Both the position numbers and the translations under genes were made by a program. A DNA stretch of 64,000 bases from an uncultured bacterium (GTDB lineage: Bacteria; Patescibacteriota; Minisyncoccia; UBA6257; 2-01-FULL-56-20): NCBI GenBank assembly GCA_963718515.1, contig OY970354.1, forward strand, positions 366,942 to 430,941. The letters are read 5' to 3'. Positions 2,640 to 16,443 of this stretch are shown one piece after another. Position 1 is the stretch's first letter. The number at the start of each line of letters is the position of its first letter. The notes below the pieces were generated by a model. The model made no database searches. It saw only the letters and a program-made list of their open reading frames with translations, and was not told the origin of the DNA.

Positions 2640-2665
2640 ATAAGTCATTAGGTTAAGAGTAAAGG

Positions 2666-3193: not shown

Positions 3194-3206
3194 GGAATCA
3201 TGAAAA

Positions 3207-3241
3207 ATCCGCCGGACTGAAAACCCGGCGGTTTTTCTTTT
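3207..3241 (+). terminator. rho-independent terminator
   Basis: tccgccgg…ccggcgg hairpin followed by tttttcttttt. Confidence 0.7.
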
Positions 3242-3250
3242 TCTTAGATA

Positions 3251-3296
3251 GGGGCAAATCTATTAATTAATTTCTTAATTAATTAAGATTTGCCCC
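3251..3296. repeat. 46-bp near-perfect palindrome (GGGGCAAATC…TTAATTAATT…GATTTGCCCC)
   Basis: Perfect 10-bp outer inverted arms flanking a TTAATTAA-rich core. Candidate operator, origin or recombination site. Confidence 0.6.
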
Positions 3297-3380: not shown

Positions 3381-3427
3381 GCCAAAGTGTTGATAACTTT
3401 TATTTCGGCAGTTATCCACACTTTGGC
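3381..3427. repeat. 17-bp inverted repeat (gccaaagtgttgataac / gttatccacactttggc) with 13-bp spacer
   Basis: One mismatch between arms. The left arm is repeated directly at 16182..16199. Confidence 0.6.
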
Positions 3428-3631
3428 CCCGCGGAAACTTTTTCGCTGTTGTAGAAAAATATAAACATGGTCATCTGCTCAATCTGTTCTCATAGCGAGT
3501 GGTGCGACGGCGGCGATCGGTGTGATTGCCAATGCCACGACGTCGATCTCGAAGATGATGGATTCTACGAGGAAGACTACGACGATGAGGGCGAAGGAAT
3601 TGACGGCAACGAAGGGGATTAATAAACAACC

Positions 3632-3781
3632 ATGAACCCAATACTCATACTTCTCGGTTTCATTGCTTTGTATATCAGCGCTTCCCGGCTTGCTTCCGTA
3701 AGGCGGCCGCCGCAGATGGGATTCATCATGCCGAAGAAGACCCTGTGGCAAAGGATAAAAAGAATCTGGCGCAACCGATGA
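3632..3781 (+). CDS. small hydrophobic peptide (49 aa), putative membrane protein
   Basis: ATG-initiated short ORF MNPILILLGFIALYIS…, co-directional with the downstream cluster. Overlaps minus-strand ORF 3479..3751, so uncertain. Confidence 0.25.
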   Translation: MNPILILLGFIALYISASRLASVRRPPQMGFIMPKKTLWQRIKRIWRNR

Positions 3782-3902
3782 ACTGGGATATTTTCAAAGG
3801 ATTCTGGCTGGGTGTTATCTCACTTCTATTCGTCGAATTTTCAATCGTATGGTCCGTGGATGAAACCAAAGGTAACGACGATAACGATACATTAAAACCA
3901 AC

Positions 3903-4058
3903 ATGACATTTCAAGATTTCATCGGCACGATCATTTTCGCTTTTATGTTCAACTTCTGCATCACGGTCATGCTCGATGGATTGCTCGGATTGTTTTACCG
4001 GCAGATCGGGGCCAAATACATTAAAGTCGTGATGAAAAATGACGGATTGAATTATTAA
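3903..4058 (+). CDS. small hydrophobic peptide (51 aa)
   Basis: MTFQDFIGTIIFAFMFNFCITVMLDGLLGLF…, a TM-like peptide. Overlaps minus-strand ORF 3726..4061. Confidence 0.25.
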   Translation: MTFQDFIGTIIFAFMFNFCITVMLDGLLGLFYRQIGAKYIKVVMKNDGLNY

Positions 4059-4059
4059 C

Positions 4060-4185
4060 ATGACGCCCCTCGATACAATTTTCTACCAGTGGTCAGAAGT
4101 GATCAATCCCTCATGGATTCTCGTGCTGTTCGCCCTTACCACGTTGCACACCTTCCTATTTACCTTCATCGAAAATTGGCTCTAA
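4060..4185 (+). CDS. small hydrophobic peptide (41 aa)
   Basis: MTPLDTIFYQWSEVINPSWILVLFALTTLHTFLF… with a predicted TM segment. Confidence 0.25.
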   Translation: MTPLDTIFYQWSEVINPSWILVLFALTTLHTFLFTFIENWL

Positions 4186-4295
4186 AGATAACATAAAGAT
4201 TCGATAAAGAAGTTATAAAGAAAAGTTAAATAAATTTTAAAGATGTTATTCCGGAAAAATAAAGGTCGAATAAATATTAACCAAACACCACAACC

Positions 4296-4565
4296 ATGGT
4301 CAAAAAGATTTCTCTTTGGCTTTCGGGCGCTGGCGCTGCGATCGTTGGCCTCATTGGGGCTGCGGCCGCTCACGCGCAGTCCATCCCGGCAGGCGCTTTG
4401 GCGGTCCCCACCTCTACGGTTCAGGATCTCCTAGCGTCGGTCAGTAACGTGTTCACCGATCCGGGTATTCTCGGCATGGTGATTATCGCTGCTGCACTGC
4501 CGATCGTCTTCTGGTTCGCTCGCCAAGTCATTGGCTTGCTGCCGAAGTCGCGCGCAGCCCGCTAG
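4296..4565 (+). CDS. small secreted protein with C-terminal TM anchor (pilin-like topology)
   Basis: 89 aa. Signal peptide ending AHAQ and C-terminal hydrophobic segment. C-terminal module DLLASVSNVFTDPGIL…FWFARQVIGLL is shared with 4851..5462. Confidence 0.5.
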   Translation: MVKKISLWLSGAGAAIVGLIGAAAAHAQSIPAGALAVPTSTVQDLLASVSNVFTDPGILGMVIIAAALPIVFWFARQVIGLLPKSRAAR

Positions 4566-4623
4566 CATCTCACCCCATCTCACGGGCGAGGGGATGTCGT
4601 GAGAACGTCCCTTCACCCGTGAT

Positions 4624-4854
4624 ATGAAAAAGAAAATTATCACAATTTCGTTTGTTGCCTTGATTCTGATCGCCGCGGAATTTTGGTGGGCCGTGTTGAC
4701 GTTGCCTTGGCCACTAGTCGTCGCCATATATGCGTACATGGCTCATGTCCTCGTTTTGGGGTTCTTGGAAATCGCAGTGGTTGCCCTTGTTATTCCGCTC
4801 GTATTTTATCTCGTCCACGGGATCATCAATCTCGTCCGCTCAAAAAAGAAATGA
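4624..4854 (+). CDS. small integral membrane protein (2 TM)
   Basis: 76 aa, very hydrophobic. Its stop overlaps the next start codon (ATGA). Confidence 0.45.
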   Translation: MKKKIITISFVALILIAAEFWWAVLTLPWPLVVAIYAYMAHVLVLGFLEIAVVALVIPLVFYLVHGIINLVRSKKK

Positions 4855-5462
4855 AGAAAATTATATACACAATTTTATTACTCCTTCCCATTCTGCTTTC
4901 TGCGGCACCAGCTTTTGCTGCCTTATCAACAACCCCCGCCAGTTCGGATAATTTAAACTCATTGCAGATTACCGTTACCGGCAATGATAATCGCCGCGTC
5001 ATTCTCGTTGACTATGCAGGCATCATCGTGGGCGATACGGATCAAAGCCACGGCTATCCTTACCCCGATACCGACGGAACATACAGCCCTTCGCAATTAG
5101 GCTTTACGTCAAGTGGTTATGGAACCTACACAATTATCAGTACAGTTCAATCCGAAAATGGACATGGCAGCTGCACACCGGGTAATACCATCGTGAGCTG
5201 TATCGGCATGATTAATTACGGAAGCGGCTATTACAACGAAAGCACGTTTAATCTTTTTGCTCCTCCGGCACCGGTAACAATCAATTCGGGCGTGCTTGTG
5301 TTGCCGTCATCTGATACCCACGATCTTTTGGCAAGCATCACGAATGTGATGGACGGTGCAGGACTGCTTGAGATCCTTGTTCTCGCAGCAGGAGTGCCAT
5401 TAGCCTTTTGGTTTATGAGAGAGATCATCGCCTTAAACTACCAGAATAAAAAACAAAAATGA
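4851..5462 (+). CDS. secreted protein with conserved pilin-like C-terminal module
   Basis: ATG at 4851 gives signal peptide MKKIIYTILLLLPILLSAAPAFA. C-terminal DLLASITNVMDGAGLLEILVLAAGVPLAFWFMREIIAL is paralogous to 4296..4565. Confidence 0.5.
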   Translation: MKKIIYTILLLLPILLSAAPAFAALSTTPASSDNLNSLQITVTGNDNRRVILVDYAGIIVGDTDQSHGYPYPDTDGTYSPSQLGFTSSGYGTYTIISTVQSENGHGSCTPGNTIVSCIGMINYGSGYYNESTFNLFAPPAPVTINSGVLVLPSSDTHDLLASITNVMDGAGLLEILVLAAGVPLAFWFMREIIALNYQNKKQK

Positions 5463-5701
5463 AAAAGATTTTTATAACCATTTCAATATTGGGTATCACC
5501 GCATTCATGCCCCTTTTGGCGTTCGCGCAGGTTGCTACAGACAGCATTCAGCTGCCGTCCGATTTCACCGCTGATGTTTTGACGCAATCAACTGCTTTAC
5601 TAACCAATCTCGAAGGCTACATGAGCCTCATCGTGGGCGTACTTCTTGCGCTCGTCGTCGTTGAATTTGTGATCGGCGCAATCAGACATCGCGGGCAATA
5701 A
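5459..5701 (+). CDS. small secreted protein with C-terminal TM anchor (paralog family)
   Basis: 80 aa with signal peptide and C-terminal TM. ATGA overlap with the upstream gene. Confidence 0.5.
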   Translation: MKKIFITISILGITAFMPLLAFAQVATDSIQLPSDFTADVLTQSTALLTNLEGYMSLIVGVLLALVVVEFVIGAIRHRGQ

Positions 5702-5709
5702 CATGAGCC

Positions 5710-7038
5710 ATGAAAAAATATATTCTCATAGCGTTAATGGTAGTGGCGGGATCGCTTGTACTCTCCTCGCACTCTGCCTTTGCGTTCAGTCTTGAAGAAC
5801 CCCAAAGCTTCGTCCAACCGGATACGATATTTCTCGATCAGAATGGCAATTTAGAAATTCAGTGGCAAAAAATTCAATTAGGGTTCGGGGGATATGATCT
5901 GCCGGGCGGTATCATGGTTTCGATCAATGGGACAAGCACTGATCCGGAATTGAGCTACAACGGCCCGTATGCCGGATGGTCGGCGGGCGGCCATGTGCTT
6001 ACGCATGGCGGCGTCGGCACCGGTGGACCGTGCGCGCCCGGATTCGGAGGGAATTACAGCACTGCAAGCGAAGCGCCTTATGGCAACACCTACGGGCCAA
6101 TAAGCACGGTATGGAACGCGGATACCAATTCTTTTGTGAGCACGGTAGGCATGACGGAAGCCACGCCGATTTATCTCACGTTTTTTAACTACAACGGATA
6201 TACGTGCGGCATCAGCGAATCAGAACCAACCGACGGCAGCACCTACTGGCAGGTATTTTATTTAAATTCCGTTGAAGAACCCGTACAGCCGGAATTTTTG
6301 CAACCATTCGACGGCGCAGTGATTGGCCAATTCCCAAACTGGGATTTTTATTTATCAAACAACTCCACAAGTTCACAAAGTGGCGTCGTAACTGTCCACT
6401 TCGGCACCGGTCCCGGCAATCTTACACTCACCGCTTCGACGACTTATACCGATCTTCCCGCGGGAACCGATACCGAACTCACGATTCCCGAAACATATCA
6501 ATTCACCACCCCGCAGGGGCCGAGTTCAAGCATATGGTATGCCGACATTGAAGTGGCGAACACCTCAACCGATTTTGATATTACGGGATCAGTCATCAGT
6601 TTCACCTTCGAGAATAATGCGCCTACCGTCGCGCCATTTCCAAATGGCATGTTTAATTTCGAGGGAGGGGAAACATCATCCACGGCATCCGATTGCGATT
6701 ACACGACTTCAAGTTTTCTCGATGATCCGGTTGGCAATCTCGAAGAAGCGGGATGCAACATGTTTATCCCGAATTCTTCGGAGCAGGCAGATCTCTACGA
6801 TTCATTTCACGGCACATGGGGCAACCTCTCGACAAAGATTCCCTTTGGCTACGCTGCGATCATCACAACAGCATTCACTAATTTTCAAGAGGGAACGAAC
6901 GCCAGCACGCTGATGAGCACGACGACCTACGCTGCGCTTTCATCGGTGCTTGATCCATTAAAGACTGGCGTATCATTTTTACTTATTCTCATGCTGGGAT
7001 TTTGGATTTTCAAATTTATTCAGCACATAACGCTATGA
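5710..7038 (+). CDS. large secreted protein with C-terminal TM anchor
   Basis: 442 aa. Signal peptide ...SHSAFA, S/T/G/N-rich body and C-terminal hydrophobic helix. Confidence 0.55.
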   Translation: MKKYILIALMVVAGSLVLSSHSAFAFSLEEPQSFVQPDTIFLDQNGNLEIQWQKIQLGFGGYDLPGGIMVSINGTSTDPELSYNGPYAGWSAGGHVLTHGGVGTGGPCAPGFGGNYSTASEAPYGNTYGPISTVWNADTNSFVSTVGMTEATPIYLTFFNYNGYTCGISESEPTDGSTYWQVFYLNSVEEPVQPEFLQPFDGAVIGQFPNWDFYLSNNSTSSQSGVVTVHFGTGPGNLTLTASTTYTDLPAGTDTELTIPETYQFTTPQGPSSSIWYADIEVANTSTDFDITGSVISFTFENNAPTVAPFPNGMFNFEGGETSSTASDCDYTTSSFLDDPVGNLEEAGCNMFIPNSSEQADLYDSFHGTWGNLSTKIPFGYAAIITTAFTNFQEGTNASTLMSTTTYAALSSVLDPLKTGVSFLLILMLGFWIFKFIQHITL

Positions 7039-7298
7039 TCGTCTATTGGATATTAAAAATATTTGTATACCTCTTGAGCCTCATCACGGCGCCGCTCTTG
7101 TTATTGCCTACAGCATCCTTGTCGGTGGATCTCACCGGCACGCTCACCCAAGCGGGCAATTATCTGGCGCTATTCGACATATTTTTGCCCGTAGGAACGC
7201 TTTTAACGGTCTTTGGCATCATTGTCTCGATCGAGGGAGGATATTTCAGCTACAAGGTCGTAAAGTGGATCTATAACAAGATACCGGGAGTAACCTAA
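7035..7298 (+). CDS. small integral membrane protein
   Basis: ATG at 7035 overlaps the upstream stop (ATGA). Three predicted TM helices. Confidence 0.4.
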   Translation: MIVYWILKIFVYLLSLITAPLLLLPTASLSVDLTGTLTQAGNYLALFDIFLPVGTLLTVFGIIVSIEGGYFSYKVVKWIYNKIPGVT

Positions 7299-7343
7299 AT
7301 TAGGGAAAGTTGTCTTTTGGCTTTTTGGCTGTAAAATATACTC

Positions 7344-8183
7344 ATGGCGAATGAACTAACACCTTCGAGCCCGCACAAGGACTTTGAGAGCATTAAGAAA
7401 ATTGACGAAAACGGGATTGAGTATTGGGAAGCTCGTGAATTAATGCCGGTTTTGGGTTATGAAAACTGGCAAAAAGCAGAGGAGGTTATTGCTAGGGCTG
7501 CCAAAGCCTGTATTAACAGCGGTCAGGATGTGGATAACCATTTTAACCAGACGGTTAAAATGGTGAATATTGGCTCAAACACAGTAAGAGAAGTAAGAAA
7601 TTATAAGCTCGATAGGTACGCTTGTTACCTTATCGCTCAAAACGGCGATCCGAAAAAACACGAAATAGCGACGGCTCAAACATACTTTGCAATTCAGACG
7701 CGACGGCAGGAGATTTTTGAACAATTGTCAGATAGCGAAAAAAGACTATTTATCCGTGGCGAAGTATCTGATCGCAACAAAAAACTTTTTAAGACAGCGC
7801 GACGAGCTGGAGTCAGTAAATTTGGTTTGTTTAACGACGCAGGCTATAAAGGTCTTTATGGTGTACCCTTAGCAGATGTTGAAAAAAAGAAAGGGATAAA
7901 AAAGGGAGAGCTACTTGATCATGCTGGCGCAACGGAGCTTGCTGCTAACTTGTTTCGTATAACACAAACCGATGAGAAAATAGCTAAGGATAAAATATAT
8001 GGGCAAGAAGCGGCTTCGAGAGCTCACTTCATGGTGGGCGGTAAAGTTAGACAAACCATTAAAGACATTGGTGGTGTTCTGCCGGAGGAATTGTCTACTG
8101 AAAAAAGTATCAAAGAAGTAAAAAAGGAAATTAAGCTTCTCAAAAAAGAGGAAAATAAAAAGATTAAGGGATTTAAAAAATAA
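7344..8183 (+). CDS. dinD: DNA-damage-inducible protein D-like (Bro-N domain) protein
   Basis: N-terminal 120 aa align with E. coli DinD/Bro-N family (…ENGIEYWEARELMPVLGYENWQKAEEVI…YACYLIAQNGDPKK…AQTYFAIQTRRQE). Lysine-rich C-terminus. Confidence 0.7.
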   Translation: MANELTPSSPHKDFESIKKIDENGIEYWEARELMPVLGYENWQKAEEVIARAAKACINSGQDVDNHFNQTVKMVNIGSNTVREVRNYKLDRYACYLIAQNGDPKKHEIATAQTYFAIQTRRQEIFEQLSDSEKRLFIRGEVSDRNKKLFKTARRAGVSKFGLFNDAGYKGLYGVPLADVEKKKGIKKGELLDHAGATELAANLFRITQTDEKIAKDKIYGQEAASRAHFMVGGKVRQTIKDIGGVLPEELSTEKSIKEVKKEIKLLKKEENKKIKGFKK

Positions 8184-8228
8184 GGCGATTTTTTTGCAGC
8201 TGCCGACTGATCCCTGTAAGCTGTAGAT

Positions 8229-9433
8229 CCCCATCTTCCCGTCCGAATGGCGTCATTGCGGTTGGTCATAAAAATCAACTCTAAAAAATGAAAACGCTTT
8301 CTTACGAGGAATATCAGGAAAAAGTATCGAACCTTAAAAATATGGACGACGTGGCGAGCTTCGTAAAGGAGCTCGTTGCTCCGGCCGTTGAAATAATCAC
8401 CGAAGAACGGCCGCCCGCGGCGACCTTCACAAAGCACAAGAGGATTAAAACCAACCTTCCGATCCCGAAGAGATATGAGATCGCGGAAAATGACGTGGAG
8501 CAGAACATCATCGCGCTCTATGCGCGGGGACTTACCACGCGCGACATTACAAGCTATCTCAAAGAGCATCACGGGATTGAGGTATCTCAAGCGACCATTT
8601 CCTCGATCACGGACAAAATGTATCCGCTCATCAAGGAATGGCAAACGCGCCCGCTATCGTCCGTGTATCCCTTCATTTACCTCGACGGCTTGCACTTTAA
8701 GGTGCGAGAATCGGGCAAGATCGTGAACCGGTGTGCCTATATCGTCCTCGGCGTGAACTCGCAGGGCTATAAGGAAGTGCTGGGTATCTGGATAGGGGAA
8801 ACCGAAGGGGCGAAGTTCTGGATGCACGTCTTGAACGAGATCAAAAACCGTGGCGTGGAAGATATTTTGATCGCTTGCATTGACGGCCTCAAAGGATTCT
8901 CCGAAGCCATCAATGCCATCTATCCGGAAGCGCAGGTGCAGCAGTGCATCGTGCATCAGATCAGGCACACGGTTAAATTCTTGCCCCACAAGGACCGCGA
9001 GGCGTTTTGTAATGACCTCAAGGCCGTCTACGGCGCGCTGAATGAAGAAACGGGGCGAGACGCATTGCAGAAGCTCAAGGCGAAGTGGCCACGCTACCAG
9101 CCGTACCTTCGTTCATGGGAAGAAAAATGGAACGAGCTCATGCCGTTCTTTGAGTATCCCGAAGCGATCAGAAAGAGTATCTACACGACAAACGCGATCG
9201 AGAGCTTGAATCATCAGTTTCGCAAAGTTACGAAGACCACGACTGTCTTTCCGCATGATGAATCGCTGGAGAAGTTACTGTGGCTCGCGCAAGACGACAT
9301 TGCGAAGCGGTGGATACACACTGTCCGCCGGTGGGGAGAGATCGTCATGCAATTGATGATCCTTTTCCCCGGCAAAATAGAACTCTAATAAAACTAACAG
9401 CTAATCGCACTGGCGCCTTCGGATAAGATGGGA
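8229..9433. mobile_element. IS256-family insertion sequence
   Basis: Mutator-type transposase flanked by imperfect ~30-bp terminal inverted repeats (cccatcttcccgtccgaatggcg… / …cgccagtgcg…ccgaaggataagatggg reverse-complemented). Confidence 0.6.
8288..9388 (+). CDS. IS256-family (mutator-type) transposase
   Basis: 366 aa with the conserved C-terminal YTTNAIESLNHQFRK motif and the DDE region typical of IS256. Confidence 0.85.
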   Translation: MKTLSYEEYQEKVSNLKNMDDVASFVKELVAPAVEIITEERPPAATFTKHKRIKTNLPIPKRYEIAENDVEQNIIALYARGLTTRDITSYLKEHHGIEVSQATISSITDKMYPLIKEWQTRPLSSVYPFIYLDGLHFKVRESGKIVNRCAYIVLGVNSQGYKEVLGIWIGETEGAKFWMHVLNEIKNRGVEDILIACIDGLKGFSEAINAIYPEAQVQQCIVHQIRHTVKFLPHKDREAFCNDLKAVYGALNEETGRDALQKLKAKWPRYQPYLRSWEEKWNELMPFFEYPEAIRKSIYTTNAIESLNHQFRKVTKTTTVFPHDESLEKLLWLAQDDIAKRWIHTVRRWGEIVMQLMILFPGKIEL

Positions 9434-9795
9434 AAATCTGGGGGGCTTCCCAAATTCCCCCAAAGGTGCTAATTTTTAAGTACAAATTAATATGTAATAG
9501 GTAGCCTAAACCCCGCGAGTAATCGCGTGGCATGGCAACAGAACCGATGAGAGACAAAAAGCTCCTAGTCAGAGCACTCTCATCGGTCATATCTCGAAAG
9601 GGATATGGGTGTCGCAAGGCATCGCTGGCTGGGAGCTTTTTGCGTCAAGCCGGCACGACTAACCTATTGCACTTAGGTCGAAAAGATTTAAAATCAAAGG
9701 TAAGGAGATGCCAGCACCCCGCGGCATTCTATAATATGTTTATAATTTTTGGCACGCGTAGTATCTTGAAAAACTTAGGCATAGTTTTCAAGAAT

Positions 9796-10224
9796 ATGTG
9801 TAACAATTGCCACAACGAAAAGTATTGGGTCTTGACCCGTACCACGAGGTGGTTTACGTTATTTTTTATACCTATTTTTCCAACCTCATCTAGGTATTCG
9901 TTGAGCTGTCCTGTCTGCAAATACGGGATAAAACTAAATCAGGAACAGATTGAGAAATATAAACCCATCGCGGAGGCGAACACACTTTTGGCAAATGGCG
10001 CAATCACTCAAGAAGAATATCAAGAACGCCTTAATCTTCCGAAAACGGTTCAAAGCGATGTTTCGGTCCCTGAATCAGTTGCTGCTCCTAGTCTTGTGTC
10101 TGCTGCCGTTTCTACTCAAGCGGCGGTTCGTGCTCAAACCCTAGCTGCGTATTGCAAGGAATGTGGAACACGATCGGACGGAGGAAAATTCTGTGGTCAA
10201 TGCGGAAATTTAATGACTGCCTAA
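9796..10224 (+). CDS. zinc-ribbon domain protein
   Basis: N-terminal CNNCHN…CPVCKYG and C-terminal CKECG…CGQCG zinc ribbons. An upstream in-frame ATG at 9735 is an alternative start. Confidence 0.45.
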   Translation: MCNNCHNEKYWVLTRTTRWFTLFFIPIFPTSSRYSLSCPVCKYGIKLNQEQIEKYKPIAEANTLLANGAITQEEYQERLNLPKTVQSDVSVPESVAAPSLVSAAVSTQAAVRAQTLAAYCKECGTRSDGGKFCGQCGNLMTA

Positions 10225-10231
10225 TAAACCC

Positions 10232-10426
10232 ATGACCATCATTTATGATTTTCTGATTAACTATGGCTATCCGATCCTTTGTGCGGGATCATTTTTAGCC
10301 GGTCTTTATTATTGGGACATTCGACCCGATTTTCGGAAAGAGACGATGTTTTGTCCTAGCTGCGGTACCCTCATTAAAAAGGGCAGTAAATTTTGTGCAA
10401 AATGTGGCCAAAAAGTTGAAATGTAA
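10232..10426 (+). CDS. small zinc-ribbon protein
   Basis: Contains CPSCG…CAKCG. May initiate at the internal ATG at 10346, giving MFCPSCG…. Confidence 0.4.
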   Translation: MTIIYDFLINYGYPILCAGSFLAGLYYWDIRPDFRKETMFCPSCGTLIKKGSKFCAKCGQKVEM

Positions 10427-10431
10427 CTTTA

Positions 10432-12297
10432 ATGAAGGACCAATTTTGTACAGCTTGCGGCGCGAAGATAAAAGAAGGAGTTAAATTTTGCACGAGCTGT
10501 GGCAAGTCCATTAACGCAAAGGCGAGTGATTCGGATTCTAAAATTAAGCATCACGTTTCAGTACCGATAGACAGTCCATCGCCAGTGCATCCCGCGCCTT
10601 CCGAAGAAACGGCAAAAAAGCATGGAAATGGGGGATGGATAGCCGCTCTTATTGTGGCCGCCGTTGTTCTTATTATTATCTTTGCCTCAATTTTTGATCA
10701 TAGTGGAAATACTAATGGCACCTCTGCTAAGTCAGTAAATTCCACTTCGGCCAGTAATAATGTCCAAGCGTCAGTCGTGGGTATCTATTGTGATAATGAT
10801 GAAGGTGGATCTGGTACGATGTTCACTACCGATGGAACCGTCCTTACTAATAATCACGTGATCACAGGCGCAACGTCGTGTAAGGTTACAATCCCGAATC
10901 CTACGACCGGAGGCATAGCAGAAATATATGAAGCAACGCCAGTTGTTACTCCAAAGCTAAGCAAGGAATATGATATAGCCACAGTAAAAATTACCGGTTC
11001 GTATACTGATGCTAGCGGCACCACGTGGGGAAGTTATCCTACTACCTTTACTGCATTTACGTTGCCGAGCACTTGTAACACTAGCACCCCTTCCCAGCTC
11101 GGCGATACAGTTAAGATTTATGGCTATCCTATTACCAGTGGAGAACTTAATCTTACGGAGACGGACGGAATTGTAAGCAGCTTTGCAGAGGATGGAGATA
11201 TACTCACTTCGGCTAAGGTTGATAGCGGTAATTCGGGTGGGCTTGCAGTGGATCAAAACGGTTGCTGGCTGGGAATACCATCAGCGGTGGTTTCTGGTAA
11301 CTATCAAAATCTAGGCGTAATTATTCCGGGAAGTGTAGTGGAAAATATTATGAGTGGTGCTCCTGCTAAATATGAACCTGCCGTTGCTAGTTCCGGAGCA
11401 AGCGCTCTTGTTGCGGCTGTTGCAGCATCTACTCCCCAGGAAACTAATGATCAAGTTTGCCAAGATAATTATGGATCGAATAGTCAATTTGATGGAAACA
11501 CCGCTAGCGATGGTACCCCATACTGTGATTGTAAGAGTGGTTATGAATGGGATGGAAGTGGCGATGCCTGTGCTACTCAAGTATCTCTACAGCAATCCTG
11601 TCAAAGCAGCTACGGAGTAGGAAGTTATGCTTATGAAAATGGTACAAAGGCACAATGTGGTTGCTCGACTGGGTATCAATGGAATTCGAACCAATCAGCC
11701 TGCGTGGCGGTTCAAGAAACCCCCCAACAGGTTTGCCAAGACAATTATGGTTATAACAGTGAGTATTCGGGTCAAACAAATAATCAAGGTGGTCCAGTAT
11801 GCCAGTGTCAGTCAGGTTATGTTTGGAATAGTGCTCAAACTGCGTGCGTAGCGCCGCCTAGTTGCACAGCATTTTCTACTTATAATCCATCAACCAATCA
11901 ATGCGAATGTGATTCTGGATATATAGCTGATGGCGATGTTTGTGAATCAGCCACAACCTATTGCCAAGACTCGGAGGGATACGGCGCCAATTATGACGCT
12001 GATACCAATACCTGCGGATGCAGCGCGGGTTATAGTTATAGCGACGGCCGATGTGAAGATGATTATTCGTATTGTACAGATTTGGATGGAGCTGGAGCAA
12101 CGTATGATGCTGGAACAAACTCATGCACATGCGAAAGCGGCTATGTTTCGAGCGGTGGCCGATGTGTATCAGGTTATACTTATTGTGAAGATTACGGTGG
12201 CTATGGCGATCAGTACGATTCTGCCACGGGGCAATGTACCTGCGAATATGGGTATGAATGGAACGGATCAAGCTGCGTATATGAGCCTAATTATTAA
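10432..12297 (+). CDS. zinc-ribbon / TM / trypsin-like serine protease protein with C-terminal Cys-rich tandem repeats
   Basis: 621 aa. N-terminal CTACG…CTSCG, one TM helix, S1-like protease core (TNNHV…DSGNSGG) and about eight ~40-aa repeats C.DNYG…C.C..GY.W…. Confidence 0.7.
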   Translation: MKDQFCTACGAKIKEGVKFCTSCGKSINAKASDSDSKIKHHVSVPIDSPSPVHPAPSEETAKKHGNGGWIAALIVAAVVLIIIFASIFDHSGNTNGTSAKSVNSTSASNNVQASVVGIYCDNDEGGSGTMFTTDGTVLTNNHVITGATSCKVTIPNPTTGGIAEIYEATPVVTPKLSKEYDIATVKITGSYTDASGTTWGSYPTTFTAFTLPSTCNTSTPSQLGDTVKIYGYPITSGELNLTETDGIVSSFAEDGDILTSAKVDSGNSGGLAVDQNGCWLGIPSAVVSGNYQNLGVIIPGSVVENIMSGAPAKYEPAVASSGASALVAAVAASTPQETNDQVCQDNYGSNSQFDGNTASDGTPYCDCKSGYEWDGSGDACATQVSLQQSCQSSYGVGSYAYENGTKAQCGCSTGYQWNSNQSACVAVQETPQQVCQDNYGYNSEYSGQTNNQGGPVCQCQSGYVWNSAQTACVAPPSCTAFSTYNPSTNQCECDSGYIADGDVCESATTYCQDSEGYGANYDADTNTCGCSAGYSYSDGRCEDDYSYCTDLDGAGATYDAGTNSCTCESGYVSSGGRCVSGYTYCEDYGGYGDQYDSATGQCTCEYGYEWNGSSCVYEPNY

Positions 12298-12308
12298 AAG
12301 CTAAAAAT

Positions 12309-12782
12309 ATGTTCTGCTCTAGCTGTGGATCAAAATTAGAAGATGGCACGAAATTTTGTGGTACTTGTGGCGCCCCGGCCGGTAAAAAAATAGCTATAGA
12401 ATCGGCAGTAGCGCCCACTCACTCCATGACATCTTTAAAGGTACTATCAATCATAGGAATTATCTTCGCGGTAATTTGTTTTCTTTGTGCGGCCGGGCTT
12501 ATTAATAGCGATGCCGTCGCTGCGGCTGGCTGGGGAATTTATGGTGAGGTTTATCTCTTAGCACTTTCGATTGTGGCTTTGGTTAAATCAGGCTCACAGC
12601 GTACGAAAGCTTTACGGGCGTTATCAATCATAGGAATTATTGTTGCTGCGCTTTGTTTCTTTTTTGAGGTTATTTTGCTAAGTAGCAATAGTAACTTTGA
12701 TGCGGCTGGCTGGGGCTTTTATACCTATATTTATTTATTAATTTTCTCTATCGTCGCCTTAGTTAAATCAGGTAAAAAATAA
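12309..12782 (+). CDS. zinc-ribbon membrane protein with internal duplication
   Basis: MFCSSCG…CGTCG ribbon followed by two copies of a ~50-aa two-TM unit (ALSIIGII…IVALVKSG). Confidence 0.55.
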   Translation: MFCSSCGSKLEDGTKFCGTCGAPAGKKIAIESAVAPTHSMTSLKVLSIIGIIFAVICFLCAAGLINSDAVAAAGWGIYGEVYLLALSIVALVKSGSQRTKALRALSIIGIIVAALCFFFEVILLSSNSNFDAAGWGFYTYIYLLIFSIVALVKSGKK

Positions 12783-12819
12783 AGATGCAGATTTCGATCT
12801 AGCCTCGCCGCTTTCAATA

Positions 12820-13299
12820 ATGAATAACGAGATCAATTTTAGTAGACAGCTTATTAAGGGGAAAATCGTTGAGATGATTTTCGAGATGATGATGCGCGAG
12901 ATGGATCGTGTTACTGTTTTGCGAGCCGGATATGAATATACCCATCCGGAATTGGCGCAATATCAGCAGCTCCTACAAGATAAGGGCCGCGAAGTACTTA
13001 AATTTTTTGAGCACAACCCTGATTTTATTTTATTCAAAAAGGATAAAACGCAGCTCTATCTCGTTGAAGTTAAATATCGGCACTATCTTGATCCCGAAAA
13101 AATCAGAGAGATAGCTGAGGAAAAATTAGAACGCTCGGAACACATTTGGCTTTTTCTTGCGACGCCCGATGGCTTCTTTTTTTCTCAATGCAAGGATATT
13201 GCTCAAATGGGTGCTATCCAGCCCCTCTCTCCCAATTGGGTTTCCGAAGAAGTCCAGAGGAATTATCTTACGCTCCTGAAAGAATTTATAAAGCAGTAG
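12820..13299 (+). CDS. hypothetical protein with PD-(D/E)xK-like motif
   Basis: 159 aa. …HNPDFILFKKDKTQLYLVEVKYR fits a PD…ExK nuclease core. This is inference only. Confidence 0.4.
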   Translation: MNNEINFSRQLIKGKIVEMIFEMMMREMDRVTVLRAGYEYTHPELAQYQQLLQDKGREVLKFFEHNPDFILFKKDKTQLYLVEVKYRHYLDPEKIREIAEEKLERSEHIWLFLATPDGFFFSQCKDIAQMGAIQPLSPNWVSEEVQRNYLTLLKEFIKQ

Positions 13300-13308
13300 C
13301 GTTTTCTT

Positions 13309-13533
13309 TTATTCGCTGAGTTGTTCCAACTGATATAACACTCTTGCTTCGATCTGTGCGATCCTCGTACCGCTGATCCCAAAATGCGCGCCACATTCTT
13401 TTAGGGTATGCGGTTTCCCGTCGGTAAGGCCGTGCTTGTATTCAAAGACTTCAAAATAGCGAGGGTGTAGCCCTAACGAAGGCTTAGTCGCCAGATATTT
13501 CTTGTTTATCTCGCTCTGGACTTCCTTTTGCAT
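13309..13533 (-). CDS. sigma-70 region-4-like HTH protein
   Basis: 74 aa. …LTDGKPHTLKECGAHFGISGTRIAQIEARVLYQLEQ resembles sigma-70 region 4.2. Confidence 0.5.
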   Translation of the reverse strand: MQKEVQSEINKKYLATKPSLGLHPRYFEVFEYKHGLTDGKPHTLKECGAHFGISGTRIAQIEARVLYQLEQLSE

Positions 13534-13609
13534 TCTGATATGCTATATTCTATCACATCAGCCCGTTTTGGCTAAACTAGCCAGTTTCGGCTCATGGAGA
13601 CCCACCTAA

Positions 13610-14488
13610 ATGCCTACCCCAACCAAGAAATATCCCTTTACCTTCCAAGAGTTACCGCTTCAAAAGGTTGAGCAAGATCCGGATCAACCGAGAAAGAACT
13701 TCGGCACCGATGACGATGAAAATCGTCTTCTTTTATCCATCCAAGAGTACGGCATACAGCAACCTTTGGTGGTTAGTGAAGTTGAAGACGGTAGATACAT
13801 TATCCTCGATGGCCACCGGCGTTATATTTGCGCTCAAAAGTTAGAGCTTGATGTCGTGCCGTGCCGGGTATACCCCAAGCTTCCAGTGGGCCAGTTTGAG
13901 ACGTTGCGCTATGAGATTCAGAATAATCGCCGTCCGTGGAAACCGCTTGAGCGCGCCGAGGCATTAAAAACCATAAAAGAAGCAATGCGTTTTGAGAATA
14001 ATAAACAACTCGCGGAGCATATTCATATGAGCGAGGCATCCGTCTCGAATTCCATTCAGCTCGCCAAAGAGAAAAGTACCTTTTTGGAGATGATGGCGAG
14101 TTACGGTTTATCAGAAGCGTATCAAGTGGAGTTTATTCATCTCAAGGCGAAATTGAGAAGGATAAAAAAACTTGAGGTGGTGGATATTACTAAGTTGCTT
14201 TTTCAGAAGGTGCAGGATAAGGTGATCCGCAGCGCAAAAGACTTTCGGAAGTTCGGAAAGATTTTCTCTCGCGCAACGGCTAACGAGGAGCAGATTTATA
14301 AATTTCTTACTGATCCTGATATGACAGTGAACGAGCTAAGCCAGCGGACCGTGCAGTCGGGGCGATCGCTTCTTATCGAGCAGTTGATCCGAGAGATAGC
14401 GAACACTCGACAGAAAGGCGTATCGTTCAGCACTCAAGAAAAAACTTCGTTGAAGCATTTATCCGAGCTTCTTGAGAAGGTCCTTTAA
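13610..14488 (+). CDS. ParB/Spo0J-family (ParB N-terminal nuclease-like domain) protein
   Basis: Q.D..QPR..F box and ILDGHRRY (GxRR) motif of the ParB N-terminal domain. No adjacent ParA. Confidence 0.65.
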   Translation: MPTPTKKYPFTFQELPLQKVEQDPDQPRKNFGTDDDENRLLLSIQEYGIQQPLVVSEVEDGRYIILDGHRRYICAQKLELDVVPCRVYPKLPVGQFETLRYEIQNNRRPWKPLERAEALKTIKEAMRFENNKQLAEHIHMSEASVSNSIQLAKEKSTFLEMMASYGLSEAYQVEFIHLKAKLRRIKKLEVVDITKLLFQKVQDKVIRSAKDFRKFGKIFSRATANEEQIYKFLTDPDMTVNELSQRTVQSGRSLLIEQLIREIANTRQKGVSFSTQEKTSLKHLSELLEKVL

Positions 14489-14493
14489 TCCCG

Positions 14494-15840
14494 ATGCTCT
14501 CCATCTCATCGCCAGCGAAGAAAAAAGGTATCGCTTACTATCGTCATTCGGCCGAAGATAAGCAGGAGAATTCGGTTCCGATCCAAAGACAGCATACCCA
14601 AAAATTGACTGGTGAGAATAATGTTGAGCTTCTTCACGAGGAAGCTGATGAAGGCAAGTCGGGACTTCTCGCTGCTCGACCGGGATTCGAGAGGCTTTTT
14701 AAGGATTGGATCTTGAACCCTGATGCCCCATATTTTGAGTATGTATTTGTCTATGACGTTTCCCGGTGGGGTAGATTTCAAGATCCTGATGAGGCGGGAT
14801 ATTATGAGTTTCTTTGTAAACAAAAAGGTAAGAAAGTTATTTATGTTTCGCGGGGGTTTCCAAAAGAAGAACAACCCCAGCTCATTTCTCATCTTCAAAC
14901 ATCCATTGAGCGCTATATGGCGGCGGAGTACAGTCGGCAGTTGAGCGACAAGGTGTTTTATGGATGCGTGAAAGTTTCGGAGCAGGGATATTCGGCCGGT
15001 GGTACTTCGTGCTATGGGATGACGCGCCTTCTTTTGGATGCCAATAAGAAACCGATCAAAGCGCTCAAGCGTGGGGAATGGAAATCATTATCGAACGAAC
15101 GCGTTACGTTCGCACCGGCAAATGATGAAACCACGGAAGCGGTAAAAGAAATGTTTGTCCTGCTCGTGAAGAAATGGCGATCGCCGAAAGAGATCGCAGA
15201 AATTTTAAATGAGAGGCAGATTCCATCGGCGACTGGTGGATTATGGAATAGCCAAAAAGTAATTCATGTGCTTACGAATGAGACCTATACCGGCTCGCGC
15301 ATTTATAACAAGACATGGGGGCGCTTGAAGCAAAAGATGCGGCAAAATCCTCGGAATGAATGGGTGATCAAACCGAACGCCTTTGATGCCATTGTCGAGA
15401 GCGATGTTTTCCGCGAAGCGCAGGAACATTTATATTGGCTTCTCGATTCAAAATGGAAGCGGGGGATCTATGCGACTAATCGCGTGAGAAAGTTAATCCG
15501 CGAGGATCTCCGCGGCATACTCTCGAAACGAGGTATCGCATATGATGACATCGAAGAAACATTGAATAAAATCCCGATCGTTTTTGGTGTTCGTTTTTAT
15601 CACAATTCAATTCCTCATTGGTGCTTCTTGATTGAAGAAACGGCTCGCAACTATGATTTTGTCATTGGAGTAAGTGTCGCTATGGATCAGCGAGAACCAA
15701 TCGACAGATTTTTTCTTATTCCGACGAACGATTTTAATGGCGTAAACTTTAACGTTTTTTCCGAAACGGATGATTGCTATGGGAAATATAAAATAGAGGA
15801 AAGTAAGGTTGAAGAAAAAGTGCTTTCGTTTATTGCCTAA
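14494..15840 (+). CDS. large serine recombinase
   Basis: N-terminal resolvase motif YYRHSAEDKQENSVPIQRQ…FVYDVSRWGR plus recombinase domain (…LWNSQKVIHVLTNETYTGSRIYNK). Confidence 0.8.
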   Translation: MLSISSPAKKKGIAYYRHSAEDKQENSVPIQRQHTQKLTGENNVELLHEEADEGKSGLLAARPGFERLFKDWILNPDAPYFEYVFVYDVSRWGRFQDPDEAGYYEFLCKQKGKKVIYVSRGFPKEEQPQLISHLQTSIERYMAAEYSRQLSDKVFYGCVKVSEQGYSAGGTSCYGMTRLLLDANKKPIKALKRGEWKSLSNERVTFAPANDETTEAVKEMFVLLVKKWRSPKEIAEILNERQIPSATGGLWNSQKVIHVLTNETYTGSRIYNKTWGRLKQKMRQNPRNEWVIKPNAFDAIVESDVFREAQEHLYWLLDSKWKRGIYATNRVRKLIREDLRGILSKRGIAYDDIEETLNKIPIVFGVRFYHNSIPHWCFLIEETARNYDFVIGVSVAMDQREPIDRFFLIPTNDFNGVNFNVFSETDDCYGKYKIEESKVEEKVLSFIA

Positions 15841-16126
15841 TTTTAACGCCTTTCACGCTGAACCAGAAAAAGGCATAGAGGACTGTCAACAGGATAATCA
15901 CAAGAAATACAGAGATCACGATCTCGCCGTAAGTGAAGCCATTATAATAGCTATTATCGGTCGAAGTGCTTTCTCCGTAGAGAGTAAGGCATGTTGAGCT
16001 ACCGAATTGGAAGGTCCCGCTATCCGTAGAAGTAGCGGGATTTAAATTTCCTCCGGTCAACACCATCGGATTGCTATAGCTGCATGTCGTGGTTGCGTTG
16101 GTCATTTTTATATTAGTGGCGTCCAA
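15830..16126 (-). CDS. small secreted/membrane protein
   Basis: 98 aa, T/S-rich with a C-terminal TM helix. Confidence 0.3.
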   Translation of the reverse strand: MDATNIKMTNATTTCSYSNPMVLTGGNLNPATSTDSGTFQFGSSTCLTLYGESTSTDNSYYNGFTYGEIVISVFLVIILLTVLYAFFWFSVKGVKIRQ

Positions 16127-16181
16127 CCGTCTGACGGTCCCACGCCTTCATTTTAACTCCCGTAGTCAAGGTCGATCAAAA

Positions 16182-16199
16182 GCCAAAGTGTTGATAACT
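16182..16199. repeat. 18-bp direct repeat copy (gccaaagtgttgataact) of the site at 3381
   Basis: Exact 18/18 match to 3381..3398. No inverted partner here. Confidence 0.7.
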
Positions 16200-16262: not shown

Positions 16263-16291
16263 TTGACATATAAAATAAGGTATGGTACAAT
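16263..16291 (+). promoter_or_regulatory. sigma-70-like promoter candidate (TTGACA-17-TACAAT) upstream of integrase
   Basis: Consensus -35 TTGACA, 17-nt spacer, -10 TACAAT. A perfect 7-bp hairpin gcccacc…ggtgggc follows at ~16425..16448 before the integrase start. Confidence 0.45.
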
Positions 16292-16443
16292 CTAAAGGTC
16301 AAAAATTAATAACTTCCCATTGTCCCGCAAGGGTCGGCCGAAAGGCTTAATTCAACCAATGGGCTTCGTAAATCGCTTAAATTGATTTATTATTTAAGCG
16401 GTGCTGCCGAAAGGTAGTACCAGCACGAGCCCACCGAGTTGAA

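What the first reader, a model, noticed from the sequence alone, without database searches (positions are those of the whole stretch)
3381..16199. 18-bp direct repeats plus palindromes may define an inner, serine-recombinase-bounded segment or recombinase/operator sites
gccaaagtgttgataact occurs exactly at 3381..3398 and 16182..16199. At the left site it is half of a 17-bp inverted repeat (3381..3427).

A separate 46-bp palindrome (3251..3296; GGGGCAAATC…TTAA repeats…GATTTGCCCC) lies just downstream of an HTH protein gene and its terminator. The large serine recombinase gene (14494..15840) sits just inside the right repeat. The tyrosine integrase sits just outside it.

This could be a nested element: serine-recombinase att sites within a tyrosine-integrase element. 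Alternatively the repeats are binding sites for the HTH or ParB-like proteins (parS- or operator-like).
Basis: seen in the sequence. Interest (0 to 1): 0.6.

Follow-up and report, generated by a model that had tools for sequence, protein, structure and literature searches.

The report
Conserved DnaA-box operator repeats in island
The 18-base repeats are real and conserved, but they are not recombinase or ParB sites: they are three copies of a promoter-adjacent binding motif built around a DnaA box, inside a previously undescribed integrative element of Patescibacteria.

Summary
GCCAAAGTGTTGATAACT is exact at 3381-3398 and 16182-16199. An inverted copy (17/18) lies at 3410-3427.

Both sites are internal to one ~15.1-kb island. 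The tyrosine integrase inserted that island into the 3' end of the gap gene.

In 14 related loci the same layout recurs. A full palindrome sits between a winged-helix gene and an operon of small membrane proteins. A single arm sits upstream of a 92-aa gene (m92) that is divergent from the integrase.

Relatives keep all three arms but have no ParB or serine recombinase. The integrase type and the arm type vary independently. The palindrome spacer is 2, 10 or 11 nt. The real att core lies elsewhere. So att-site and parS readings are rejected.

The invariant core of every arm is TTAT-N-(C/A)-ACA, the DnaA-box consensus. A fourth perfect box follows the integrase stop codon. The outer 7 nt co-vary among the arms of one element. 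Each arm ends 25-28 nt upstream of a -10-like hexamer.

Best reading: operator-type control sites, bound by host DnaA and/or an element winged-helix or zinc-ribbon protein. They flank the integrase module as lambda OL/OR flank cI. A DnaA-dependent origin is the main rival.

The parts
3381..3398 (-). Arm a1, the outer arm of the palindrome. The motif AGTTATCAACACTTTGGC reads leftward. It contains the DnaA-box-like TTATCAACA at 3388-3396.
   Evidence: A TTGAAA (3378-3373) and an AAATAT (3355-3350) follow it at the same offsets as in the relatives.
3410..3427 (+). Arm a2, the inner arm of the palindrome: AGTTATCCACACTTTGGC. It contains a perfect DnaA box, TTATCCACA, at 3412-3420.
   Evidence: In every relative the box in this arm is perfect (TTAT[C/G]CACA).
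3399..3409 (.). The 11-nt spacer or loop of the palindrome (TTTATTTCGGC).
   Evidence: Spacer length is 11, 11, 10 and 2 nt in the window/L141, L143, L140 and L150.
16182..16199 (-). Arm a3, the single arm. The motif AGTTATCAACACTTTGGC reads leftward toward m92. Its box TTATCAACA is at 16189-16197.
   Evidence: It is present upstream of every m92 homologue fetched (L123, L138-L150).
16150..16179 (-). Promoter-like site for m92: TTGATC, 18 nt, TAAAAT. It starts 2 nt after arm a3.
   Evidence: The block 16141-16203 is 60/62 identical in L123, while the adjacent DNA has diverged.
3455..3460 (+). A -10-like hexamer (AAAAAT), 28 nt after arm a2 and 6 nt before the ATG of the first operon gene. The mRNA may be leaderless.
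   Evidence: The equivalents CAAAAT, CAGAAT and GAAAAT sit at +25 to +28 in L141, L111, L143 and L150.
3251..3296 (.). 46-bp AT-rich palindrome, GGGGCAAATC...GATTTGCCCC.
   Evidence: It is almost sequence-identical in L140, L141, L143 and L150. It could be a terminator hairpin, part of a leftward small RNA from a1, or an unwinding element.
3209..3231 (.). Bidirectional intrinsic terminator after the winged-helix gene.
2891..3193 (+). 100-aa winged-helix protein, a candidate arm-binding regulator.
   Evidence: AF2 model with pLDDT 78 and an H-H-b-H-H-b-b topology. Foldseek matches MarR, ArsR and TFE winged helices. The gene sits next to the palindrome in all relatives.
2744..2964 (+). Conserved ~73-aa zinc-ribbon ORF (CxxC...CxxC) that overlaps the start of the winged-helix gene. 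It is a second candidate factor.
   Evidence: Its sequence type follows the arm type (A versus B/C) in 4 elements. No Pfam or PHROG hit.
3467..7298 (+). Conserved operon of small membrane or secreted proteins: zf51, p49, p53, p51b, p41, p89, p259, p80, p442 and p98.
15830..16108 (-). m92, a conserved 92-aa protein with a C-terminal membrane helix. It is always divergent from the integrase.
16263..16460 (+). Strong promoter (TTGACA, 17 nt, TACAAT), a ~165-nt structured RNA, and a terminator, directly upstream of the integrase gene.
   Evidence: z = -5.7. No Rfam match.
16465..17532 (+). Xer-like tyrosine integrase of the island.
17547..17555 (-). Fourth, perfect DnaA box (TTATGCACA), 15 nt after the integrase stop codon.
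   Evidence: A perfect box lies ~30 nt after the integrase stop in L138, L141, L143, L148 and L150, with only the N position varying.
2569..2642 (+). attL region: the 3' end of the gap gene, rebuilt by the element with AT-richer codons.
17665..17749 (+). attR region: the displaced original 3' end of gap (...YNNELGYVSTLIKHVEKVAELL*).
13309..15840 (.). Cargo module: a sigma70-region-4-like HTH (13309-13533, minus strand), a ParB-like protein (13610-14488) and a 448-aa serine recombinase (14494-15840). It is not linked to the repeats.

Best explanation
The three 18-nt arms are cis-acting protein-binding sites of a single ~15.1-kb integrative element. They behave as operators or upstream promoter elements.

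Anatomy:
- Each arm reads 5'-AG TTAT-N-(C/A)-ACA C-W-T-W-G-G-M-3'. That is a DnaA box plus a 7-nt extension specific to the element lineage.
- Each arm points toward a promoter, and its outer end lies 25-28 nt upstream of a -10-like hexamer.
- Arm a2 faces the operon of small membrane proteins. Arm a3 faces m92. Arm a1 faces a short leftward transcript that runs through the 46-bp hairpin.
- On the circular map of the element, a3 and the a1/a2 pair bracket the integrase, zinc-ribbon and winged-helix module (~2.4 kb). This resembles lambda OL/PL and OR/PR bracketing the immunity region.

Proposed mechanism:
- Host DnaA binds the invariant box. An element protein (the winged-helix or the zinc-ribbon protein) reads the extension, either as well as DnaA or instead of it.
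- Together they switch outward transcription on or off, possibly with looping between the two control regions.

What is shown: the anatomy, its conservation, the co-variation of the arms, the geometry relative to -10-like hexamers, and the independence from ParB, the serine recombinase and the integrase type.

What is inferred: which proteins bind, that the -10-like hexamers are real promoters, and the direction of regulation.
For: 1. Both sites are internal to one element. The gap 3' end is duplicated at 2569-2642 and 17665-17749. The element GC is 43-48% against 53-58% for the flanks.
2. The architecture recurs. The order is winged-helix gene, hairpins, palindrome, operon, variable cargo, m92, single arm, integrase. 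It is seen in L140, L141, L143, L145, L146 and L150. The single arm plus m92 is also seen in L123, L138, L139, L142, L144 and L147-L149.
3. The arms are far better conserved than their surroundings. The palindrome is 46/47 identical in L111, inside a region of 72% identity. The block 16141-16203 is 60/62 identical in L123.
4. The arms co-vary. Type A is GCCAAAG, type B is TCCTATG and type C is TCGTATG. Four of 18 stem pairs change on both sides and none changes on one side only. All three arms are of one type within single elements: A in the window and L141, B in L143 and L150.
5. The invariant core equals the DnaA-box consensus TTATNCACA, and only its N position (plus position 6 in a3) varies. 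A further perfect box follows the integrase stop in every element. The island has 3 perfect boxes against 0.64 expected. The rest of the window has 1 against 0.94.
6. The distance from arm to -10-like hexamer is fixed at +25 to +28 for all three arm classes across lineages. The m92 promoter is also picked up by the consensus scan.
7. The palindrome spacer is variable, so the arms act individually rather than as a rigid recombinase core.
8. A winged-helix DNA-binding protein is always encoded next to the palindrome.
Against: - No binding or transcription data exist. The a1 and a2 promoters are only -10-like hexamers without a good -35.
- In the m92 promoter a conserved TTGAC lies only 8 nt from the -10. 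That does not fit a simple sigma-70 model.
- The recognition helix of the winged-helix protein does not track arm type. L150 (type B) and L140 (type C palindrome) have the same helix sequence, KAARIAKN.
- The zinc-ribbon correlation rests on four linked loci.
- The DnaA-box consensus has not been verified for Patescibacteria.
- An 18-nt arm centred near -48 is unusual for a plain repressor.
- Co-variation of the two palindrome arms is equally what a functional DNA hairpin would show.
Confidence: 0.55

Rival explanations
1. The sites form a DnaA-dependent replication element for the excised form. The palindrome would be two inverted DnaA boxes next to the very AT-rich 46-bp hairpin. Arm a3 and the box after the integrase gene would complete a bipartite origin around the integrase module. 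Alternatively, the palindrome is a single-strand initiation hairpin that carries a DnaA box in its stem.
For: - The palindrome arms carry perfect DnaA boxes in most elements. In the window only a2 is perfect.
- Each element has four boxes within ~2.4 kb of its circular map.
- The 46-bp AT-rich palindrome 85 bp away is almost sequence-invariant across lineages.
- The stem co-varies while the loop is free in length and sequence, as expected for a hairpin.
- The element has no recognisable replication protein of its own, so it would have to rely on host DnaA.
- From my own knowledge: bipartite origins around dnaA, and the 'A-site' hairpin with a DnaA box used by the ABC primosome, are known precedents.
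Against: - Only 3-4 boxes are spread over 2.4 kb. Origins usually hold a dense cluster.
- a3 always carries the weaker box.
- The fixed distance from each arm to a -10-like hexamer, and the lineage-specific extension, are not explained by an origin.
- No Rep, helicase loader or evidence of a single-stranded stage was found.
- There is no evidence that the element replicates autonomously. L141 may be a tandem junction rather than a circle.
Confidence: 0.2
2. The 18-mers are recombination sites (attL/attR or res-type) that bound a nested 12.8-kb segment moved by the serine recombinase. A variant has the tyrosine integrase acting on them.
For: - The direct repeat of 18-24 nt brackets 12.8 kb, with the recombinase gene 342 nt inside the right copy.
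- A full palindrome at one end with a single arm at the other is what a hairpin attP or an arm crossover would leave.
- Two metagenome contigs, L111 and L123, end at these sites.
Against: - Relatives with all three arms have no ParB or serine recombinase.
- L123 has m92 and the arm, but 83-aa and 211-aa genes where the recombinase would be.
- L005, with an 85-86% identical recombinase, has no arm.
- The integrase is 38% identical between the window and L141, yet the arms are the same. It is 93-94% identical between L141 (type A) and L150/L148 (type B).
- The true att core lies ~290 nt after the integrase stop in L138, L140 and L141, and at the gap 3' end in the window.
- The palindrome spacer is 2-11 nt.
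- Flanks on both sides of both sites are conserved.
- No recombinant junction was found among the 44 metagenome hits.
- Contig breaks at a palindrome or repeat in low-coverage 1.6-kb contigs are ordinary assembly behaviour.
Confidence: 0.04
3. The sites are parS or KorB-type operators for the ParB-like protein at 13610-14488.
For: - The protein is a genuine ParB/Spo0J family member with an HTH (TIGR00180, 80 bits).
- There is no ParA nearby.
- From my own knowledge: KorB-like ParB proteins regulate promoters through palindromic operators.
Against: - ParB is absent from every relative that keeps the arms.
- ParB-plus-recombinase modules elsewhere (L005-L008, L012-L020, L136, L137) lack the motif.
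- A different conserved motif lies directly upstream of parB and is shared with L005 and L137: AGCCCGTTTTGGCTAAACTAGCCAGTTTCGGCT at 13560-13595.
- The arms do not resemble the 16-bp parS consensus.
Confidence: 0.02
4. The arms are kept alike only by gene conversion or duplication of a promoter module, or they act as an RNA or DNA hairpin (terminator or processing site) with no dedicated binding protein.
For: - The 24-nt direct repeat, plus the loosely similar TCGAT...CAAAW flank, looks like a duplicated block.
- Hairpin co-variation is seen.
Against: - The arms are conserved far above their flanks across lineages that differ by 20-30%.
- The invariant positions coincide with a known protein-binding consensus, including its degenerate position.
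- The palindrome lies downstream of two terminators and between divergent -10-like sites, so it is probably not transcribed.
- a3 has no partner arm and does not fold.
Confidence: 0.05

Closest known systems
Lambda-type immunity-region operators (OL/PL and OR/PR/PRM). This comparison rests on my own knowledge.
   Same: - The same recognition sequence is repeated at two control regions.
- Those regions bracket the lysogeny module (here integrase, zinc-ribbon and winged-helix genes) and face outward toward the other genes.
- One region carries divergent promoters.
- A small DNA-binding protein is encoded between the regions.
   Different: - There is one arm per promoter rather than three tandem operators.
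- The arms lie upstream of the -35 position (about -40 to -57) rather than over the promoter.
- The core of the site is a host DnaA box.
- No CI- or Cro-type HTH is present.
- Binding is untested.
DnaA boxes (TTATNCACA) in oriC, in plasmid and phage origins, and in DnaA-regulated promoters. The ABC-primosome 'A-site' hairpin is a further case. This comparison rests on my own knowledge.
   Same: - The match to the 9-mer consensus is exact, with variation confined to the N position.
- There are several boxes per element.
- An AT-rich segment lies nearby.
- The box sits in a hairpin stem.
   Different: - Each box is fused to a lineage-specific 7-nt extension that co-varies among the arms.
- The boxes are few and dispersed.
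- Each lies at a fixed distance from a -10-like hexamer.
- The DnaA specificity of Patescibacteria has not been verified.
attP/attB sites of large serine recombinases
   Same: - The total size is ~47 bp.
- The site is an imperfect inverted repeat.
- A large serine recombinase gene lies nearby in this window.
   Different: - The sites are not at element ends.
- They do not co-occur with the recombinase in relatives.
- The spacer is odd in length and variable.
- No shared central dinucleotide exists between the two direct copies.
CTX-phi-type folded hairpin attP. This comparison rests on my own knowledge.
   Same: The layout matches: a full hairpin at one place, a single arm as a direct repeat elsewhere, and mismatches in the middle of the stem.
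   Different: - The true att junctions lie elsewhere.
- The single arm has conserved element DNA on both sides in all relatives.

Membership tests
Large-serine-recombinase att sites | The sites lie at the junctions between the mobile segment and its target. | tested here: not met
   Sequence on both sides of both sites is conserved in relatives. The m92, arm and integrase adjacency is seen in all 12 loci that extend past the arm.
Large-serine-recombinase att sites | The sites co-occur with the cognate recombinase. | tested here: not met
   There is no ParB or recombinase hit in L138-L150 (tblastn). L005, with an 85-86% identical recombinase, has no arm.
Large-serine-recombinase att sites | Half-site spacing is fixed around a central 2-bp crossover shared by the partner sites. 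| tested here: not met
   The spacer is 11, 10 or 2 nt. The spacers tttatttcggc and caaaataattc share no position-matched dinucleotide.
Tyrosine-recombinase core or arm-type sites | The site lies at or close to the crossover and co-evolves with the integrase. | tested here: not met
   The att core is ~290 nt after the integrase stop in L138, L140 and L141, and at the gap 3' end in the window. The arms are 0.8 and 1.5 kb away. Integrase at 38% identity goes with identical arms, and integrase at 93-94% identity goes with different arm types.
parS / ParB-family operator | The site co-occurs with the ParB homologue and resembles a 16-bp parS palindrome. | tested here: not met
   A different conserved motif lies upstream of parB.
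DnaA box | The sequence matches TTATNCACA, and variation is tolerated at N. | tested here: met
   a2 is perfect in all lineages. a1 is perfect in most. a3 is TTAT(C/T)AACA. The box after the integrase gene is perfect, with N = C, G or A.
DnaA box | The site is bound by DnaA domain IV. | not testable with these tools
   This needs EMSA, footprinting or ChIP.
DnaA-dependent origin | There is a dense cluster of boxes next to an AT-rich unwinding element, and the element replicates autonomously. | tested here: inconclusive
   There are 3-4 boxes per element over 2.4 kb. A conserved AT-rich 46-bp palindrome lies 85 bp from the pair. No replication data exist.
Transcriptional operator / upstream activator site | The site holds a fixed position relative to promoter elements and is conserved above background. 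| tested here: met
   The arm end lies 25-28 nt upstream of a -10-like hexamer in all three classes and all lineages. The m92 promoter is found by the scan. Conservation is shown. The promoters are predicted only.
Transcriptional operator / upstream activator site | A cognate regulator binds the site and changes transcription. | not testable with these tools
   The candidates are DnaA, the winged-helix protein and the zinc-ribbon ORF.
Transposon terminal inverted repeats | Inverted repeats lie at the ends of the mobile unit, with variable flanks and a target duplication. | tested here: not met
   The flanks are conserved. No target duplication is present.

The most novel reading that the evidence does not exclude
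The element belongs to an undescribed family of temperate, capsid-less or filamentous-like viruses, or of virus-like integrative elements, of Patescibacteria. It has no replication or packaging enzyme of its own. It uses host DnaA directly.

On this reading the DnaA-box hairpin beside the AT-rich palindrome is its replication or single-strand initiation signal. The distal single arm and the box after the integrase gene complete a bipartite, DnaA-sensed switch. That switch would couple induction and replication to the replication state of the host.
Probability: 0.12. Interest if true: 0.75.

Novelty: new variant of a known kind. Interest (0 to 1): 0.42.

Why it matters
Mobile elements and viruses of Patescibacteria (CPR bacteria) are barely characterised. 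This analysis defines a compact integrative element family with ~14 core genes and no match in phage or plasmid collections. It also identifies the family's conserved control DNA.

If host DnaA really binds these sites, the element reads the host's replication initiator to time its own gene expression or replication. That can be tested with short DNA probes.

The work also removes a false lead. The ParB plus serine-recombinase pair is cargo and is not the agent acting on these repeats.

Tried and rejected
- **18-mer scan of IMG/VR.** It gave 3 hits, all chance matches inside unrelated genes.
- **18-mer scan of metagenomes.** It gave 44 hits. Of these, 42 are chance matches in a few unrelated gene families. 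Only L111 and L123 are true relatives.
- **Palindromes or repeated half-sites around 11 ParB plus recombinase loci** (L005, L006, L008, L012-L016, L018-L020). No shared motif emerged. The L012 palindrome has no second copy.
- **Exact-protein look-ups of the serine recombinase and RpiB, seeking an empty site or another strain.** Both returned only one Logan contig with the same arrangement.
- **Rfam on both sites and on the RNA upstream of the integrase.** Nothing reached threshold.
- **Matching arm type to a protein.** The winged-helix recognition helix, zf51, m92 and the integrase do not correlate with arm type. Only the zinc-ribbon ORF does, and weakly.
- **L151, a close p442 relative.** It is a remnant next to what looks like an RNase P RNA gene and has no arms.
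- **Three-sequence consensus fold of the RNA upstream of the integrase.** It was inconclusive.
- **Literature searches** for 'ParB-like' plus 'large serine recombinase', and for LOOT RNA. Nothing useful was found.
- **Models considered and rejected:** transposon terminal repeats, integrase arm-type sites, and a CTX-phi-like hairpin attP. The reasons are in the membership table.

Full report
**1. The observation**

GCCAAAGTGTTGATAACT occurs exactly at 3381-3398 and 16182-16199. An inverted copy with one mismatch lies at 3410-3427. No other good match exists in the 64 kb, and the shuffle expectation is 0.02. The direct repeat extends to 24 nt at 23/24.

The left site is an 18+11+18 palindrome that folds well as single-stranded DNA (z = -5.7). 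The right site does not fold. The separate 46-bp AT-rich palindrome at 3251-3296 is also real (z = -8.0). It follows an intrinsic terminator (3209-3231) of the 100-aa gene at 2891-3193.

**2. The setting**

Positions ~2600-17750 have 43-48% GC, against 53-58% on either side. The last ~24 codons of the gap gene (2569-2642...WYDNEAGYVSTLIKHVEKVAELL*) are duplicated, in diverged form, at 17665-17749. That second copy lies between the tyrosine integrase (16465-17532) and rpiB.

This is the usual signature of an element integrated into the 3' end of a gene. It carries its own replacement 3' end. So one ~15.1-kb island runs from gap to rpiB, and both 18-mer sites are internal to it. They lie 0.8 kb and 1.5 kb from the junctions.

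Island genes, in order:
- a small zinc-ribbon ORF and a 100-aa protein
- a tight operon of small signal-peptide or membrane proteins plus a 442-aa protein (3467-7298)
- cargo: Bro-N, an IS256-family transposase, a LOOT RNA, zinc-ribbon proteins, a trypsin-like protein, a small sigma-region-4-like HTH, a ParB-like protein and a 448-aa serine recombinase
- a 92-aa minus-strand gene (m92, 15830-16108)
- the right 18-mer
- a strong promoter, a ~165-nt structured RNA and a terminator
- the integrase

**3. The ParB and serine-recombinase pair**

Its homologues (50-86% identity) are widespread, mostly in Patescibacteria. They always occur as ParB (~290 aa) plus recombinase. They sit next to another recombinase (L005, L006, L008) or directly next to tRNA genes (L136, L137). 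None of these loci has the 18-mer or an analogous repeated half-site. A different conserved motif lies upstream of parB. The pair therefore behaves as an independent module that rides here as cargo.

**4. True relatives of the sites**

A metagenome scan with the 18-mer gave 44 loci. Of these, 42 are chance matches in unrelated genes. Two, from one sample, are relatives.

- L111 aligns to window 3376-4615 at 72-87% identity, yet it keeps the palindrome at 46/47.
- L123 aligns to 15829-16203 and keeps the block 16141-16203 at 60/62.
- L123 carries m92 but no recombinase. Other genes occupy that position.

I then searched for homologues of m92 (57 clusters) and fetched their contigs. In every locus m92 is divergent from a tyrosine integrase, and one arm lies just upstream of m92.

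Where the contig reaches far enough (L140, L141, L143, L145, L146, L150), a full palindrome lies between the homologue of the 100-aa gene and the homologous small-protein operon. This matches the window.

A tblastn search shows which genes are conserved. The conserved genes are the 100-aa gene, the operon, m92 and an integrase. ParB, the recombinase, the sigma-like HTH, Bro-N, the transposase, the trypsin-like protein and most zinc-ribbon proteins are absent from the relatives. The only exception is a 38-aa stretch that overlaps the LOOT RNA. The relatives carry other cargo: Fic, restriction-modification, SMODS and methylases.

**5. Why these are not recombination sites**

- The sites persist without ParB or the recombinase.
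- The window integrase is only 38% identical to that of L141, yet the arms are identical. The L141 and L150/L148 integrases are 93-94% identical, yet their arm types differ.
- L138, L140 and L141 are identical from the integrase gene to ...GGGAATCACYGTTGA and diverge exactly there. L138 continues into host DNA. L140 and L141 continue into the zinc-ribbon and winged-helix side of an element. So the att core is ~290 nt after the integrase stop, far from the palindrome.
- The palindrome spacer is 11 nt (window, L111, L141, L143), 10 nt (L140) and 2 nt (L150).
- The spacers next to the two direct copies in the window share no position-matched dinucleotide.
- Both flanks of both sites are conserved across relatives.

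L140 pairs a type-A single arm with a type-C palindrome. Its divergence from L141 begins precisely at the att core. It is therefore best read as a junction between two different elements in tandem.

**6. What the arms are**

Aligned in the direction of the adjacent gene, every arm reads nn-TTAT-N-(C/A)-ACAC-W-T-W-(C/G)-G-M.

The invariant part is the DnaA-box consensus TTATNCACA, and variation falls on its degenerate position.
- a2 is always a perfect box.
- a1 is usually perfect.
- a3 is always TTAT(C/T)AACA.

A further perfect box lies 15-30 nt after the integrase stop in every element. This holds for the window, whose integrase is of a different type. In the L141-type relatives only N varies at this box, which has none of the arm extension. 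The island holds 3 perfect boxes against 0.64 expected. The remaining 46 kb holds 1 against 0.94.

The outer 7 nt come in types A (CTTTGGC), B (CATAGGA) and C (CATACGA). Within the palindrome, 4 of 18 pairs change on both sides and none changes on one side only. Within single elements the distal arm a3 has the same type as the palindrome: A in the window and L141, B in L143 and L150.

**7. Geometry**

The outer end of each arm lies 25-28 nt upstream of a -10-like hexamer in all lineages.
- a3: TAAAAT or TATACT. In the window a TTGATC lies 2 nt after the arm, and the promoter scan finds this site.
- a2: AAAAAT, CAAAAT, CAGAAT or GAAAAT, ending 6-9 nt before the ATG of the first operon gene. The mRNA may be leaderless.
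- a1: AAATAT, preceded by TTGAAA, TTGGAA or TTGAAC. It points leftward into the 46-bp hairpin and the bidirectional terminator, which would give a ~140-nt RNA.

The 46-bp hairpin is almost sequence-invariant across lineages.

On the circular map, a3 and the a1/a2 pair bracket the integrase, zinc-ribbon and winged-helix module and face outward.

**8. Candidate binding factors**

- The 100-aa protein is predicted to be a winged helix (pLDDT 78). Foldseek matches MarR, ArsR and TFE winged helices. Its recognition helix does not follow arm type.
- A conserved ~73-aa zinc-ribbon ORF upstream of it does follow arm type. This rests on four linked loci only, and the ORF has no family match.
- The match of the invariant core to the DnaA consensus makes host DnaA the most economical binder for that part. 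This is inference from the established consensus, not a test.

**9. Conclusion**

The repeats are conserved, co-evolving, promoter-associated binding sites of a single integrative element. They are built on DnaA boxes and arranged like the operator sets that flank a phage immunity region.

The main rival is a DnaA-dependent origin or single-strand initiation hairpin. Both could be true. The serine-recombinase, integrase, parS and transposon-end readings fail direct tests.

The element family has no match in the phage collection for its largest core protein and none in IMG/VR. It appears to be undescribed.

Noticed in passing
window 16263-16460: A near-consensus promoter (TTGACA, 17 nt, TACAAT) drives a ~165-nt highly structured RNA. 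The RNA has three GNRA-type loops (z = -5.7) and its own terminator, and it ends a few bases before the integrase start codon. Similarly placed hairpin-rich leaders precede 40-42% identical integrases in the IMG/VR loci L010 (9815-9998) and L011 (9785-9996). There is no Rfam match.
   Followed up: partly
window 9503-9623; L143 14438-14558 (-); L005 345-465 (-): LOOT RNA (Rfam RF03000, 78-91 bits) occurs in the cargo region of these Patescibacteria mobile elements. It also lies next to a serine recombinase in L005. In the window it overlaps the annotated start of the ORF at 9532-10224.
   Followed up: partly
window 13309-15840: A three-gene module is conserved at 50-90% identity across many Patescibacteria contigs. 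It holds a small sigma70-region-4-like HTH (minus strand), a ParB-like protein and a 448-aa serine recombinase with no zinc-ribbon domain hit. It abuts tRNA genes (L136, L137) or other recombinases. A conserved motif, AGCCCGTTTTGGCTAAACTAGCCAGTTTCGGCT, lies upstream of parB. It is probably an integrative module in its own right.
   Followed up: partly
window 2744-2964: A conserved ~73-aa zinc-ribbon ORF (CxxC...CxxC) overlaps, in another frame, the first ~24 codons of the winged-helix gene. Both frames are conserved in L140, L141 and L150.
   Followed up: partly
window 15830-15840; L141 6574-6584: Unrelated cargo genes converge on the 3' end of m92 with the same 11-nt overlap: the serine recombinase here and Fic in L141. 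This suggests a fixed cargo-exchange boundary.
   Followed up: no
window 8288-9388: An IS256/Mutator-family transposase gene (matching profile positions 94-378 of 379) sits inside the island cargo, between the Bro-N gene and the LOOT RNA. Its terminal repeats were not sought.
   Followed up: no
window 3467-3622: The first operon gene encodes a 51-aa protein with a conserved Cys/His cluster (CSICSHSxWCDGxDxCDCxCH) and a very acidic tail. It is conserved in all relatives and its function is unknown.
   Followed up: no
L006 1832-1948/4590-4706 and 4878-4981/17789-17892: Two pairs of perfect or near-perfect 104-117-nt inverted repeats flank 2.6-kb and 12.8-kb segments in a contig that carries a ParB, serine-recombinase and tyrosine-integrase cluster. 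They may mark invertible segments or be an assembly artefact.
   Followed up: no
L151 8940-9400: A remnant of the conserved operon (p89, p80, p442, p98; p442 is 92.5% identical) lies next to what looks like the host RNase P RNA gene. It has no arms, no winged-helix gene and no integrase.
   Followed up: partly
window 7529-7566: A perfect DnaA box (7529-7537, minus strand) overlaps a 14-bp-arm palindrome (7535-7566) inside the Bro-N gene.
   Followed up: no
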